Made by a program: the position numbers and the translations under genes. A stretch of DNA of 63,901 bases, counting the filler, from Octopus bimaculoides (taxonomy: Eukaryota): the NCBI RefSeq assembly GCF_001194135.2. It is 9 parts of 9 records of this genome, joined end to end, with 100 filler letters (N's around TTAATTAATTAA, not from the genome) between each part and the next. Parts side by side here need not be neighbours in the genome. Positions count along the whole stretch, not along the records: positions 5,881 to 22,050 come from NC_068994.1; positions 22,151 to 27,988 come from NC_068983.1; positions 28,089 to 41,612 come from NC_068981.1; positions 41,713 to 50,125 come from NC_068987.1; positions 50,226 to 59,651 come from NC_069002.1; 4 more parts are not named here. One strand, given 5' to 3'. The notes under the pieces were generated by a model. The model worked only from the letters and a program-made list of their open reading frames with translations. It searched no databases and was not told where the DNA came from. Below are positions 7,158 through 58,657 of the stretch, one piece after another. The first letter of the stretch is position 1, and the number at the start of each line of letters is the position of its first letter.

Positions 7158-7223
7158 AAACAGGAACCAGGTTTCGGATTTAACAAATTCTTACCATTTG
7201 TCTATTCCTCATCAGCCTGATTT
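7158..7223 (-). ncRNA. Type I minimal hammerhead ribozyme motif (family 1)
   Basis: Minus strand reads aaatcagg CUGAUGA GGAAUAGACAAAU..AUUUGUUAAAUCC GAAA C CUG G UU / CCUGUUU. Core intact, stem I CAGG/CCUG, stem II 11 of 13 pairs. Confidence 0.75.
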
Positions 7224-10200
7224 GTAATGTAACAGCAATTATCAGAATCGTATACATAGTTGCCCACCGCCATGGGTGCGCGTGCATATGGTTCTGCTAA
7301 TTACAGCTTANNNNNNNNNNNNNNNNNNNNNNNNNNNNNNNNNNNNNNNNNNNNNNNNNNNNNNNNNNNNNNNNNNNNNNNNNNNNNNNNNNNNNNNNNN
7401 NNNNNNNNNNNNNNNNNNNNNNNNNNNNNNNNNNNNNNNNNNNNNNNNNNNNNNNNNNNNNNNNNNNNNNNNNNNNNNNNNNNNNNNNNNNNNNNNNNNN
7501 NNNNNNNNNNNNNNNNNNNNNNNNNNNNNNNNNNNNNNNNNNNNNNNNNNNNNNNNNNNNNNNNNNNNNNNNNNNNNNNNNNNNNNNNNNNNNNNNNNNN
7601 NNNNNNNNNNNNNNNNNNNNNNNNNNNNNNNNNNNNNNNNNNNNNNNNNNNNNNNNNNNNNNNNNNNNNNNNNNNNNNNNNNNNNNNNNNNNNNNNNNNN
7701 NNNNNNNNNNNNNNNNNNNNNNNNNNNNNNNNNNNNNNNNNNNNNNNNNNNNNNNNNNNNNNNNNNNNNNNNNNNNNNNNNNNNNNNNNNNNNNNNNNNN
7801 NNNNNNNNNNNNNNNNNNNNNNNNNNNNNNNNNNNNNNNNNNNNNNNNNNNNNNNNNNNNNNNNNNNNNNNNNNNNNNNNNNNNATATATATATATATAT
7901 ATATATACATACAAGGATGTATATAAAACTCTGTAAAAAAATGTATGTGTGTGTGTATATCTACTTGTATCTTTCTGTATGCATTTATACATGTATATGT
8001 ATTTAGTTTCAGAAGATATTAGAATAATGGAATAAAAGTCAGTCATAACAAGAGATCTCCCAAAAATCTATTTCCTTAATTTTCAACTACTGTTTCTGGC
8101 ACACAATTTTAATTTTGAAGTATTTAAAAAACTATTTGGAAATTATAAAGAGAAACAAATGGGAGATTCAGACTGTCCATATTTTAAAACCACAAATTAA
8201 AAAAGAATTCTGTGTGTCAAATTTTTTCTCCAGATGTTTATGGCTTCATAGGAATAAGCATGGAAAACTACATCAAGATAACCAATTGTCAGGCTTTTTA
8301 CTGCCTTTTAAAAAATGCAGACTTTGTGAATGAAACAAACTAGATCCTGAATAAGAAATGAATGTTTAATATGACAAATTTTCAGATTTTTTTACATCAT
8401 TTTAAAAGGGGGCTGATTTTTGTTACTTAAATGAAGTACATATGTATTTCACCAATTTCTATCAAATACACTCTCTTTCTTGAACATAAAAAATCCTCTT
8501 CCTGGGTGACAATAACTCGTATGTCAAATTGTTGCGCAACTTTTAGCTGTTTTGATAAGGGAAATAGGAAAGGTTTGAAATGATTTCATCGGCATTTACT
8601 TGCACCAAAGAGAACTTATTTTGATAGACAACACATTGACCTCATAAGTGTCGCAATTTTGCATTTCAATTTGTACATCTGTACTCCCAACTGTGTACAA
8701 GCGCATATGTAAAATGACGCCCTTTATTTTTTAATCATTATCTGGTGATATCAAAATAAGTAGTATATTGAAAAATAAAAATTGGGGGGGGGGGCATTTG
8801 TGATTCCAAGGGTCAAAAGAGGGCCTTTGGCCAAAATGGGTTGAGAACCTTTGCCCTAGAGGATTCATCAGGTCATTTGTATCACAGAACTCTCTTCATT
8901 TCTAGATCCAAAGCTATTGACTCCATGTACACCATGGAATCCATCAGTGGTGCCCAACATGTCTGTTAAAGTTACCAGTCACAAAGATTAGAACATTGAC
9001 ATTTAGCATCATCATCATTATTACTATTCTATACAGTTTGTCTGTAAAAGTTACTCTCTCTCAACCAGAGGCAAATGATGTAGCTCCATCTCCCACACTC
9101 CTCACTCAGTAATAACACTGAATACAGGCAGAAAGACTTCTTTTGATGTAAGGTATTTTGCAGCTTCACTATCAACATGTGACTGTAACATTTGTCACCT
9201 ATCAGTCTATTTCAATGTAAGTTGAAAGGTATGGCATAAATTGTACTTGTCTAGCATCAAAATATTGACCATTTTATTGAATAAAATGCATTACATTGGC
9301 ATGTTTGTCATGAATTGCTAACCTTTTTTGGGTGGTTAGTGCCTACTTTGCATCTTCTACATTGAAATTCTTTCTGAAATCTGTCAATAACTAAGTTGGT
9401 CCAAATGGTTTTTTATACTTCTAATATTTTTTACATTATCATCAACTTAGAGGGGAAATCCAGGAAAGATTTGGAACAATTAGTTCAGTGTTCATCATCA
9501 TTTAATGTGCATTTTCCATGCACATTAACCCCTTGCAGGTGGGAAATGGTACAGTGTGTGTGTTGCTGGACAATGGCTGAGGCCGTTGCCACATTAGTGT
9601 ACAGTTGCATAGTGGCTATGGCTGCAACCTACTTTTCTGTTAGGAATTTCTGATAATAGTGGATGATGGCTATGGCTGCAACCTACATTTCTGTTTGGAA
9701 TTTCGGATAAGCTGGGTTTTTTTAGTTATTGTTATGTGAAGCCCACAGATGAGGTTATATGCAAGTGATTGGTGTATAGTCAAACATATCTCTGTTGTTA
9801 GTGTGAAAGAGTGAATATTACTTCCACTCAGAAGCTTGCAAAAGTGAATAATACTTCTGCTCAGTTTCATAAACCAGAGCGATCTGTAAGAGCATTGATA
9901 TTGCTATTGACTTCTTCATTAATTTTCTCACAATCAGTATGCCTCTGAAATATAAAGTTCAGAGGCACAAGGAACTGGTTGTGATGACACACTATAAAAT
10001 TCCATGTATGAAAAATTATGTAGTCACTGAATGGCCTAATACCAGCACACAGCCCAGGCTGCCAGTACTAAATCCATCTGCAAGGGATTAACAGAAACTG
10101 ACAAATCAGAAGGCTACCCCAGGGAGAAGTATTGAGGAACAAAAGAAGAGGAGAAACATGGCTACCCTAAGCAGAGAGGGAGAGAGTGAAAATGTAGTGG

Positions 10201-10975
10201 ACCAGGGATTGCAAAAGGAGAGTGGGAGCATGGAGTAGGGATGATGAGTGAGCACAGGTAAAGGGAAGGGGTATTAGGATATGTTATGAAGAAGGGATTC
10301 AACAGGAACATATTTTGTACAGCTAGGTACATGAGAGAGAATGGAGTGTGGGGAGTATGATGGTAGTGAGGGTTAGGCATAGACATAAGGATCATGCCTT
10401 TGTGTCCTGGATTTTAGCTGGGTGTGCCTCCTCAAGCACAGCAAATCACTAAATGTCTTGGTCTTTTGTCACCTCTGTGAGGCTCAACATCTGCTGATCA
10501 TTTCCTACCTCGTCATCCCATGTCTTCTTGGTTCTTCCTCTTCCACAAGTTCCCTCCCCATTTAGAGATCAGTAAAAAGTAATGGGTTTTGAGTTTTGGG
10601 CACAGGTCATAACTGATTGAGTAGACCTATGATTGGAAGCTGTGCGGCTACTATCCGATTGGAATTGTGAATCTAGGACTGCATTATCTAACGTATCTTT
10701 TTTTTTAAAAAAAACTGTGAAATATACTTTAAGGGATATTTGGCTGTGATTCCTAACATGTTGAATGACATAGATGAGCCTTTGTTGGCTCCTGATAGGT
10801 TTAACCAGCAACAAAGGTAGTACAAATGTAAGCAAACTAATTTCCAAATCTAACCAACACAACATAGGAAACTATTCATCATGAGAATTGTAGCACAAGT
10901 TTTTTTTTTCTTTTTACTAAGATTTTGTGTATAAAAATTAATGTTATTTTTAAACCTCATTTTCCTCTTTTTCAG

Positions 10976-11024
10976 GTCAGTTCTCTGAGAACGAGACTAA
11001 TGAGATCAATTTCCGTGAGATTCC
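10976..11024 (+). CDS. ELOC: Elongin C internal coding exon (G)QFSENETNEINFREI(P)
   Basis: Polypyrimidine tract + ttcag acceptor, gtaagt donor. The translation matches the Elongin C segment GQFAENETNEVNFREIP as I recall it. The other coding exons are not visible and probably lie in N-gaps. Confidence 0.93.
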
Positions 11025-57791: not shown

Positions 57792-57867
57792 GATAACTGA
57801 TTAAGTAACCAGAAGATGGATTTGGTATTAATAGCAAATCCATCTTCTGGTTAATTAATCAGTTATC
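57792..57867. other. Near-perfect hairpin: 33-bp arms, one mismatch, 10-nt loop
   Basis: gataactgattaagtaaccagaagatggatttg / caaatccatcttctggttaattaatcagttatc. Confidence 0.9.
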
Positions 57868-58540
57868 CTTATCTCAACTAACACTGCAGAGTTCCTGAAG
57901 TAGATCCAACAGAAATATACCCTGACTGAGGATGAAACCAGGTAGCCCCANNNNNNNNNNNNNNNNNNNNNNNNNNNNNNNNNNNNNNNNNNNNNNNNNN
58001 NNNNNNNNNNNNNNNNNNNNNNNNNNNNNNNNNNNNNNNNNNNNNNNNNNNNNNNNNNNNNNNNNNNNNNNNNNNNNNNNNNNNNNNNNNNNNNNNNNNN
58101 NNNNNNNNNNNNNNNNNNNNNNNNNNNNNNNNNNNNNNNNNNNNNNNNNNNNNNNNNNNNNNNNNNNNNNNNNNNNNNNNNNNNNNNNNNNNNNNNNNNN
58201 NNNNNNNNNNNNNNNNNNNNNNNNNNNNNNNNNNNNNNNNNNNNNNNNNNNNNNNNNNNNNNNNNNNNNNNNNNNNNNNNNNNNNNNNNNNNNNNNNNNN
58301 NNNNNNNNNNNNNNNNNNNNNNNNNNNNNNNNNNNNNNNNNNNNNNNNNNNNNNNNNNNNNNNNNNNNNNNNNNNNNNNNNNNNNNNNNNNNNNNNNNNN
58401 NNNNNNNNNNNNNNNNNNNNNNNNNNNNNNNNNNNNNNNNNNNNNNNNNNNNNNNNNNNNNNNNNNNNNNNNNNNNNNNNNNNNNNNNNNNNNNNNNNNN
58501 NNNNNNNNAAAAGAAAAAATAACAACAAAACTACAAAGGA

Positions 58541-58657
58541 TTCCGCGGTACACGTGTTTCAAGCTCTACATGTGTATAATATAATATAACATAATATAAT
58601 ATAACATAATATAATATGTGTATAATCTACAATGTAAAGCTATCTTCAGCCGCAAAA
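58541..58657 (-). ncRNA. Type I hammerhead motif with a satellite-expanded stem II loop (family 5)
   Basis: UUUUGCGG CUGAAGA U AGCUUUACAU...(AUAUU)n-like loop...AUGUAGAGCU U GAAA CACGUG UA / CCGCGGAA. 8-bp stem I, 10-bp stem II, palindrome ACACGUGU, U.U at 10.1-11.1. Confidence 0.78.

What the first reader, a model, noticed from the sequence alone, without database searches (positions are those of the whole stretch)
7158..58657. Six hammerhead ribozyme motifs from five unrelated families in one 64-kb window, sharing the dimer-type palindromic stem III
Seen: motifs at 7158-7223, 21034-21172, 22834-22937, 27617-27662, 40222-40265 and 58541-58657 share the order stem I / CUGANGA / stem II / GAAA / tiny stem III / NUH / stem I, but their helices have unrelated sequences. 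Stem III is a (near-)palindrome in each family: ACC(U)GGU, ACAGCUGU, ACGAUCGU, ACGU (mutated in the 40.2-kb copy) and ACACGUGU. Established: minimal type I hammerheads with palindromic stem III occur in the pseudo-LTRs of Penelope-like elements and cleave as dimers. Inference: this genome hosts a diverse set of short, non-coding, ribozyme-headed retroelements (solo pLTRs or retrozyme-like units). Several end about 200-250 nt after the cleavage site at or near (TA)n. No Penelope ORF is visible here.
Basis: partly seen in the sequence, partly recalled or inferred. Interest (0 to 1): 0.88.

Follow-up and report, generated by a model that had tools for sequence, protein, structure and literature searches.

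The report
Penelope-type hammerhead tails in octopus repeats
The six small RNA motifs of the self-cutting "hammerhead" type are really there; in the two families checked they sit near the fixed tail end of very abundant repeats that are likely stumps or parasites of Penelope-type jumping genes in what is likely an octopus, a known kind of element, and cutting is untested.

Summary
All six type I hammerhead motifs are present. Five pass a palindrome-requiring descriptor; 0 of 300 shuffles reach five. They form five families; only 27.6 kb and 40.2 kb are related. Reads laid on two families show the ribozyme is not the head. It lies 342 nt (21 kb family) and 52 nt (27.6 kb family) before a fixed 3' end, with depth falling 5'-ward and inverted junctions, the Penelope-like-element (PLE) footprint. 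Majority letters repair the stems; the 27.6 kb family matches the published PLE minimal hammerhead and has roughly 10^5 copies (rough). No PLE ORF was linked, no same-family tandem pair lies in the window, and RNA shows no pile-up at the cut sites. Verdict: a new (likely octopus) set of members of a known kind. This scan already noted such octopus hammerhead repeats on other DNA, including a tRNA-headed SINE with a Penelope tail. Whether the 27.6 kb family is that SINE stays open: in both copies a LINE 3' end sits where a head would be.

The parts
7160..7220 (-). Hammerhead m1; stem III ACCUGGU, H17=U at 7165; assembly gap from 7311 hides the 5' side; copies elsewhere not examined
   Evidence: z -1.5; Rfam Hammerhead_HH9 12.8 bits, E 1.9, far below gathering 52
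20701..21042 (-). m2 family tail, 342 nt from predicted cut site to the fixed 3' end on (TA)n; two small hairpins in the last 60 nt
   Evidence: loose ends at 20701 into (TA)n in 25 and 19 contigs and 29 reads; fold
21035..21173 (-). Hammerhead m2; stem III ACAGCUGU, H17=A at 21043; long stem II with 105 nt between the cores
   Evidence: z -2.5; majority letters repair two stem I pairs
21174..21570 (-). m2 family body 5' of the ribozyme, shared by fewer copies; may continue through the (TTA)n at 21592-21645 to 21802
   Evidence: depth 2,000-16,000 vs 113,000-137,000 on the hammerhead; continuation beyond 21580 not tested
21803..22007 (+). Inverted (head-to-head) arm of the m2 tail, 93% identical, starting 1 nt after the predicted cut site and running into (TA)n
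22835..22936 (-). Hammerhead m3; stem III ACGAUCGU, H17=U at 22840, 73 nt in stem II
   Evidence: z -2.2; MFE lacks stem I
22594..23129 (-). Possible whole m3 insertion: 246-nt tail ending at (TA)n; bounded by a 10-bp direct repeat that is not significant
   Evidence: 238 of 1413 random windows give such a repeat
27570..27730 (-). m4 element: (TAA)n, 48-nt leader, minimal hammerhead 27617-27662 (ACGU, H17=U at 27622), 52-nt tail with fixed 3' end; very high copy family
27731..27988 (-). 3' end (C-terminus and 3' UTR) of a REL-endonuclease LINE, likely R4/Dong, abutting the (TAA)n of m4
26890..27569 (+). Decayed reverse transcriptase remnant on which the m4 3' end lands (RTE-like by recall)
   Evidence: RVT_1 E 6e-8
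40106..40316 (+). m5 element, second copy of the m4 family (89% over 169 bp); hammerhead 40222-40265 with broken palindrome ACUU
39830..40105 (+). Short 3' end of a second, diverged REL-type LINE abutting the (TAA)n of m5
58541..58657 (-). Hammerhead m6; stem III ACACGUGU, H17=A at 58549, 8-bp stem I, AT-rich insert in loop II; tail cut by an assembly gap after 40 nt
   Evidence: z -2.8

Best explanation
The six motifs are real hammerhead-type sequences that, in the two families tested, lie a fixed short distance before the 3' end of abundant dispersed repeats, and they are likely the ribozyme-bearing ends (pseudo-LTR pieces) of several Penelope-like retroelement families or of their non-coding parasites. 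Shown: motif, fixed 3' ends, depth falling towards the 5' side, inverted junctions, an (TA)n landing site for one family, stems repaired in the majority of copies. Inferred mechanism: a PLE endonuclease/reverse transcriptase nicks AT-rich DNA, starts copying at a fixed point downstream of the ribozyme and usually stops early, so most copies keep only tail plus hammerhead, sometimes with a head-to-head arm. Because most copies run through the cut site, the template was likely uncut RNA. The palindromic stem III would allow cleavage only when two copies pair, as in tandem source loci; the solo copies here are likely inert.
For: (21 kb family): loose ends into (TA)n at 20701; summed contig depth in run X2 460,000-850,000 at the 3' end, 113,000-137,000 on the hammerhead, 2,000-16,000 upstream; six opposite-strand joints among 15 shown of 23; 21168 changed in 99.6% and 21040 in 61% of depth, both restoring stem I pairs; a sister subfamily shares core and stems but differs in loop II and both flanks. 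(27.6 kb family): 560 and 597 contigs end at 27570 with unrelated flanks (agreement 0.46-0.48); 79% carry the base that gives an unpaired A after CUGAUGA, G10.1-C11.1 and a 5-bp stem II, the consensus of PMC4209133; the free core position N7 varies (7% and 22%) while neighbours vary about 1%; head-to-head arm; 32 predicted peptides of a sister repeat include 15 with tandem units and 6 with an antisense arm joined to a sense arm. PMC11167929: in a lizard PLE copying starts downstream of the ribozyme, uses uncut RNA, and no reads end at the cut site. PMC13282606: 31 recently active PLE families in Octopus vulgaris.
Against: No PLE reverse transcriptase or GIY-YIG sequence was linked to any family; the parent is inferred. 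Three of five families (m1, m3, m6) have no copy-level data. No significant target-site duplication. Depth is not copy number and also falls where this old copy diverges from others. m1, m2 and m3 lack the unpaired base before stem II typical of PLE minimal hammerheads, and m2, m3, m6 have unusually long stems II. Rfam gives no hammerhead match at threshold. The inverted arm starts 1 nt after the cut site, which would fit a cut template.
Confidence: 0.72

Rival explanations
1. The 27.6/40.2 kb family is not a stump of an autonomous PLE but a full non-autonomous SINE: a Pol III (tRNA-like) head, a (TAA)n middle and a PLE-derived hammerhead tail, copied by PLE enzymes. In both window copies an R4/Dong-type LINE has inserted into the (TAA)n and separated the head. 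This refines the best explanation for one family rather than replacing it.
For: About 10^5 copies with a fixed end; both copies begin at the same (TAA)n; 49 related predicted peptides are all 183 aa or shorter and none runs into an RT; R4/Dong targets (TAA)n in molluscs (PMC7998251, passage); LINE C-terminus upstream in 2 of 2 copies vs 0 of 3 other (AAT)6+ tracts. Earlier unverified scan notes describe such a SINE in other octopus DNA.
Against: No tRNA-like head seen: ARAGORN 0 genes, no B-box near either copy, reads masked beyond 27700, no head-like extension recognised in the 17 same-tail peptides. The earlier notes could not be tied to this family by sequence (searches found nothing).
Confidence: 0.45
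2. The elements are non-LTR retrozymes: tandem units cut by the hammerheads, circularised and reinserted, with the window copies being monomers.
For: Sister repeat shows tandem units of 41-43 codons in 14 of 32 peptides; one contig joins 27687 back to 27570; the m2 tail of 342 nt is in the retrozyme size range (PMC7229834); a 2026 preprint treats retrozymes as non-autonomous PLE derivatives with many monomers (10.64898/2026.07.22.740005).
Against: No sequence 5' of any hammerhead repeats its tail; no back-joint among RNA reads in the rows shown and no read pile-up at cut sites; tails fold only modestly better than shuffles.
Confidence: 0.15
3. Some copies are made from the ribozyme's 3' cleavage product, so the cut defines a 5' end ('ribozyme-headed', the first reader's view).
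For: The inverted arm at 21803 starts 1 nt after the m2 cut site; depth steps down slightly across the m4 cut site (8.6 to 7.1 million).
Against: Other inversion joints in the m2 family fall at 20927, 20986, 21035, 21057, 21083, 21100, not at the cut; no place where many molecules begin or end in either lay; most depth continues through the ribozyme.
Confidence: 0.1
4. Chance matches to a short motif in AT-rich repeat DNA.
For: A stricter first descriptor found one hit that 5 of 100 shuffles matched; m4 and m5 fold no better than shuffles; no Rfam match at threshold.
Against: 0 of 300 shuffles reach the observed count; majority letters repair the stems and the motif is the part kept between subfamilies.
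Confidence: 0.03

Closest known systems
Minimal and small-palindrome type I hammerheads of metazoan PLE pseudo-LTRs (Cervera and De la Pena 2014, PMC4209133; read parts 1-2 of 4 and supplement passages)
   Same: CUGANGA/GAAA core, short stem I, palindromic helix III, many divergent families per genome, mostly solo copies. m4 majority form has the unpaired base, G10.1-C11.1 and GAAA-CG-UU-GUG as in their Lottia examples.
   Different: No octopus in the parts searched; m1-m3 lack the unpaired base; m2, m3, m6 have 8-nt palindromes and 73-105 nt in stem II; about 10^5 copies for one family against 2,000-9,000 motifs per genome in that paper.
Insertions of endonuclease-bearing PLEs (Arkhipova 2013 PMC3846280, Craig 2021 PMC8557442, passages; Frangieh 2024 PMC11167929, parts 1-2 of 4)
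   Same: Fixed 3' end downstream of the ribozyme, 5' truncation, head-to-head inverted arm, AT-rich or (TA)n targets, no RNA ends at the cut site.
   Different: No ORF, no direct pLTR pair and no clear target-site duplication found here; clade (Poseidon, Neptune, Hydra) not assignable.
Metazoan non-LTR retrozymes (PMC7229834, passages; bioRxiv 10.64898/2026.07.22.740005, parts 1-2 of 5)
   Same: Non-coding, type I hammerhead, PLE named as likely helper.
   Different: Defined by tandem units and circles; window copies are solo and not permuted.
Schistosoma Sm-alpha / Sj-alpha SINE-like elements (review PMC6765202, passages)
   Same: Short abundant repeat with a hammerhead; would match the m4 family if it has a Pol III head.
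   Different: Head not shown here; Sm-alpha is often tandem, with a canonical hammerhead.

Membership tests
Type I hammerhead ribozyme | CUGANGA and GAAA cores with NUH site in type I order | tested here: met
   6 of 6
Type I hammerhead ribozyme | Helices I and II supported across copies | tested here: met
   m2 and m4 families: majority letters restore pairs (40 of 192 and 40 of 57 difference rows shown). Not tested for m1, m3, m6.
Type I hammerhead ribozyme | Rfam hammerhead model at gathering score | tested here: not met
   (150 of 169 rows shown); best HH9 12.8 bits vs 52. m3, m5, m6 not scanned singly.
Type I hammerhead ribozyme | Self-cleavage at H17 | not testable with these tools
   cDNA reads show no pile-up of ends, which such libraries may not show
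PLE minimal hammerhead (Cervera 2014) | Palindromic positions 15-16 and loop 3 | tested here: met
   5 of 6; self-duplex -1.7 to -11.1 kcal/mol, m5 +4.3
PLE minimal hammerhead (Cervera 2014) | Unpaired base between 9 and 10.1 and G10.1-C11.1 | tested here: inconclusive
   Both met in the m4/m5 family majority; m1-m3 have G-C but no extra base; m6 has U.U
Penelope-like element | PLE reverse transcriptase plus GIY-YIG ORF linked to the repeat | tested here: inconclusive
   none in 145 of 761 window ORFs; none among 53 and 1 peptide hits for the m4 frame; no genome available
Penelope-like element | Fixed 3' end just downstream of the hammerhead, 5' truncation | tested here: met
   m2 and m4 families; m1, m3, m6 not tested
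Penelope-like element | Head-to-head inverted 5'-truncated arm | tested here: met
   m2 in the window and joints in other copies; none near m1, m3, m4, m5, m6
Penelope-like element | Target-site duplication of about 8-10 bp | tested here: inconclusive
   m3 10-bp repeat not significant; none for m1, m5
Non-LTR retrozyme | Tandem units each with a hammerhead | tested here: not met
   0 of 6 in the window; one back-joint contig for m4; tandem only in the sister repeat's peptides
Non-LTR retrozyme | Circular RNA | not testable with these tools
   no back-joint among RNA rows shown
tRNA-derived SINE (m4 family) | A and B box head 5' of the body | tested here: inconclusive
   none in the window copies, where a LINE 3' end abuts the (TAA)n; other copies not readable past 27700
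R4/Dong LINE (flanking fragments) | RT, CCHC knuckle, REL endonuclease, (TAA)n target | tested here: inconclusive
   relatives of ORF 63011-63394: CCHC in 32 of 34 long hits, PD motif in 29 of 34, C-terminus like the m4/m5 upstream peptides in 19 of 34 by strict pattern; no call named the clade, no tree built

The most novel reading that the evidence does not exclude
The 27.6/40.2 kb family is a Pol III, tRNA-headed SINE of about 10^5 copies that is copied by Penelope-type enzymes through a borrowed hammerhead tail instead of by a LINE, making octopus one of the most hammerhead-dense animal genomes (one motif per 10-25 kb), with its internal (TAA)n serving as a landing site for R4/Dong LINEs.
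Probability: 0.4. Interest if true: 0.6.

Novelty: new member of a known kind. Interest (0 to 1): 0.32.

Why it matters
As it stands it adds octopus to the animals whose genomes are littered with PLE-type hammerheads, at a density that looks high (one family alone about 10^5 copies, a rough figure). Two searches of the held library listed no paper on octopus hammerheads. Five families with different palindromes in one genome give ready material for the open question of what PLE hammerheads do in vivo: 5'-end histograms over thousands of copies can show whether cut RNA is ever the template. If the largest family is a SINE carried by PLE enzymes, it would be a SINE-helper pairing I did not find described.

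Tried and rejected
Whole-genome search: no genome held. Strict descriptor: found 1 of 6 because it forbade a 2-nt stem III loop, bulges and mismatches. Rfam: only microsatellite-driven miRNA matches and one sub-threshold hammerhead hit. DNA patterns of the m4 family: one chance match inside a phage-like ORF in viral contigs, none in metagenome or prokaryote genome contigs. The open frame across m4 (ATG at 27692, 123 nt to the 3' end, like the lizard PLE ORF start) was not confirmed as a PLE N-terminus. The 21665-21802 spacer is not similar to the m2 tail (103 of 300 shuffles score as well). m3 target-site duplication not significant. RNA reads from three 2026 runs map to both families on both strands about equally, about 6% of each run read; this shows neither cleavage nor independent transcription. 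Lunse et al. on dimer cleavage was not held; I saw only its title in a reference list. One supplementary file of PMC4209133 was not searchable, bioRxiv supplements are closed, and Repbase/Dfam octopus consensuses were not available; any of these may already list these families.
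Full report
Observation. The six motifs are in the sequence as described. I call them m1 (7160-7220), m2 (21035-21173), m3 (22835-22936), m4 (27617-27662), m5 (40222-40265, the only plus-strand one) and m6 (58541-58657). A descriptor that needs a self-complementary stem III finds m1-m4 and m6; 0 of 300 local dinucleotide shuffles reach 5 (mean 0.08). 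Without that need it finds 7 against a mean of 1.3, 0 of 300 reaching 7. This descriptor was loosened after I had read the motifs; a stricter one found only m1, matched by 5 of 100 shuffles. Only m4 and m5 align with each other. Self-duplexes of stem III are -5.5, -11.1, -10.0, -1.7, +4.3 and -10.3 kcal/mol. Fold z-scores are -1.5, -2.5, -2.2, -0.4, -0.4 and -2.8. Rfam has no hammerhead match at threshold.

Setting. The window is gappy, microsatellite-rich animal DNA (57,084 called bases). It is likely octopus: the one longer protein carrying the m4 peptide is named Octopus bimaculoides. Among 145 of 761 filtered ORFs, Pfam found two RT remnants, two mariner-type transposase pieces and a zinc finger, and no GIY-YIG. 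No genome was held, so I laid DNA contigs of two species labels and RNA reads on two of the five families.

m2 family. Copies end at 20701 and run into (TA)n, 342 nt after the predicted cut. Summed contig depth in run X2 is 460,000-850,000 at the 3' end, 113,000-137,000 on the hammerhead and 2,000-16,000 further 5', with single contigs at 43-84. That is roughly 10^4, 2x10^3 and 10^2 copies, a 5'-truncation slope; the tool warns depth is not copy number, and divergence of this copy adds to the slope. The majority letter repairs a U.G to C-G (99.6%) and a U.U to U-A (61%) in stem I. Loose ends at 21041, 21083 and 21171 show a sister subfamily that keeps core and stems but has another loop II and other flanks. 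The window also has a head-to-head arm, 21803-22007, 93% identical to the tail. It starts 1 nt after the cut site. Other inversion joints lie at 20927, 20986, 21035, 21057, 21083 and 21100 (15 of 23 joint rows shown), so this single coincidence is not proof of a cut template.

m4/m5 family. Hundreds of contigs end at 27570-27573 with unrelated flanks: a fixed 3' end 52 nt after the cut. Summed depth is 5-10 million against 40-68 for single contigs, about 10^5 copies. With a 2.8-Gb genome (O. vulgaris figure, as a stand-in) that predicts two copies in this window, as seen, so the window is not special for this family. In 79% of depth the motif has an unpaired A after CUGAUGA, G10.1-C11.1, a 5-bp stem II and GAAA-CG-UU, the minimal PLE hammerhead of PMC4209133. 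The free position N7 varies in 7% and 22% of depth, its neighbours in about 1%; CpG sites in and beside the palindrome decay in 9-15%. Both window copies begin at (TAA)n. Upstream of it both carry the C-terminus of a LINE that matches relatives of the RT at 63 kb with CCHC and REL motifs; 0 of 3 other (AAT) tracts do. R4/Dong LINEs target (TAA)n in molluscs, so secondary insertion is the simple reading; the clade name is my inference. What normally lies 5' of the (TAA)n could not be read: the lay masked 27701-27790.

Peptide search. An open frame crosses m4 from the (AAT)n to the 3' end. HMMER found 53 hits; I dropped 4 as unrelated by eye. The 49 others are short predicted ORFs (183 aa at most), none leading into an RT: 17 have the m4 tail and 32 a sister tail. 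Of those 32, 15 hold tandem units (14 of 41-43 codons) and 6 join an antisense arm to a sense arm. The library gives no organism, and the DNA is inferred from the peptides. This shows PLE-style tandem and fold-back layouts in a close relative, and no autonomous parent.

m1, m3, m6. Window evidence only. m3 ends at (TA)n about 246 nt after the cut; a flanking 10-bp repeat is not significant. Gaps hide the 5' side of m1 and the tail of m6.

Mechanism. Shown: motif, fixed 3' ends, 5' decline, inversions. Inferred: PLE target-primed reverse transcription that starts downstream of the ribozyme and stops early. In the one PLE studied in vitro, copying starts at an internal site downstream of the hammerhead, cleavage is not needed, the ribozyme cuts only with protein, and no RNA reads end at the cut (PMC11167929). 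Our RNA lays agree: no pile-up of ends. Dimer cleavage through the palindrome follows from PMC4209133 (low activity, dimers and trimers only) and would apply to tandem source loci, not to these solo copies.

Comparison and novelty. Many divergent solo hammerhead families per genome, with palindromic helix III, are the published PLE pattern. O. vulgaris has 31 recently active PLE families (PMC13282606, parts 1-2 of 3). A 2026 preprint places retrozymes as non-autonomous PLE derivatives. Membership as PLE is by footprint only, since the ORF was not found; tandem retrozyme layout was tested and not met. Searches for octopus with hammerhead listed no paper on the subject; subscription papers and repeat libraries were not searchable. 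Earlier notes of this scan report the same kind of motif on eight other pieces of this genome and a tRNA-headed SINE with a Penelope tail in other octopus DNA; these are unchecked leads. I had noted the head idea from recall before seeing them and could not test it here.

Verdict. Observation confirmed, interpretation partly supported, new member of a known kind, interest 0.32. The open novel point is the very high copy m4/m5 family as a Penelope-carried SINE (probability 0.4, interest 0.6 if true).

Noticed in passing
27570-27700, RNA vs DNA lays: RNA reads carry many more A>G and T>C differences than DNA contigs (e.g. 27633 about 17% vs 0.14%; 27650 about 13% vs 0.17%), some in stem II; likely A-to-I editing, but individuals differ and some non-editing changes are also RNA-enriched.
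   Followed up: partly
21041-21046 (minus): The m2 cut site overlaps a perfect 5' splice-site word (GUAAGU); no matching splice joint among the RNA rows shown.
   Followed up: partly
20701-20760 (minus): Two small hairpins sit in the last 60 nt of the m2 family, the deepest-covered part; possible start signal for the copying enzyme.
   Followed up: partly
27570 and 40300-40316: The m4 family 3' end can repeat its last 9 nt in tandem (m5; 49 and 42 RNA reads), suggesting slippage at the start of copying.
   Followed up: no
P0001: A predicted O. bimaculoides dystrobrevin beta isoform begins with a peptide read from the m4 repeat, i.e. a copy annotated as a first coding exon.
   Followed up: no
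62756-63901 (minus): Decayed REL-type LINE RT, up to 81% identical to database proteins.
   Followed up: partly
2469-2777: About 310-bp fold-back element around (TA)n, 79% arm identity, no CUGANGA core in it; MITE-like or a headless stump.
   Followed up: no
23580-23796 and 26735-26951: 217-bp 100% identical duplicate beside gaps and (CA)n; likely an assembly artefact.
   Followed up: no
11958-12164 and 53531-53929: Mariner-type transposase remnants (HTH_48, Transposase_1).
   Followed up: no
19915-20066 (plus): Seventh loose descriptor hit without a palindrome; within chance expectation.
   Followed up: no
28102-28350 and 28594-28846: Direct repeat of about 250 bp at 92% identity, 492 bp apart.
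   Followed up: no
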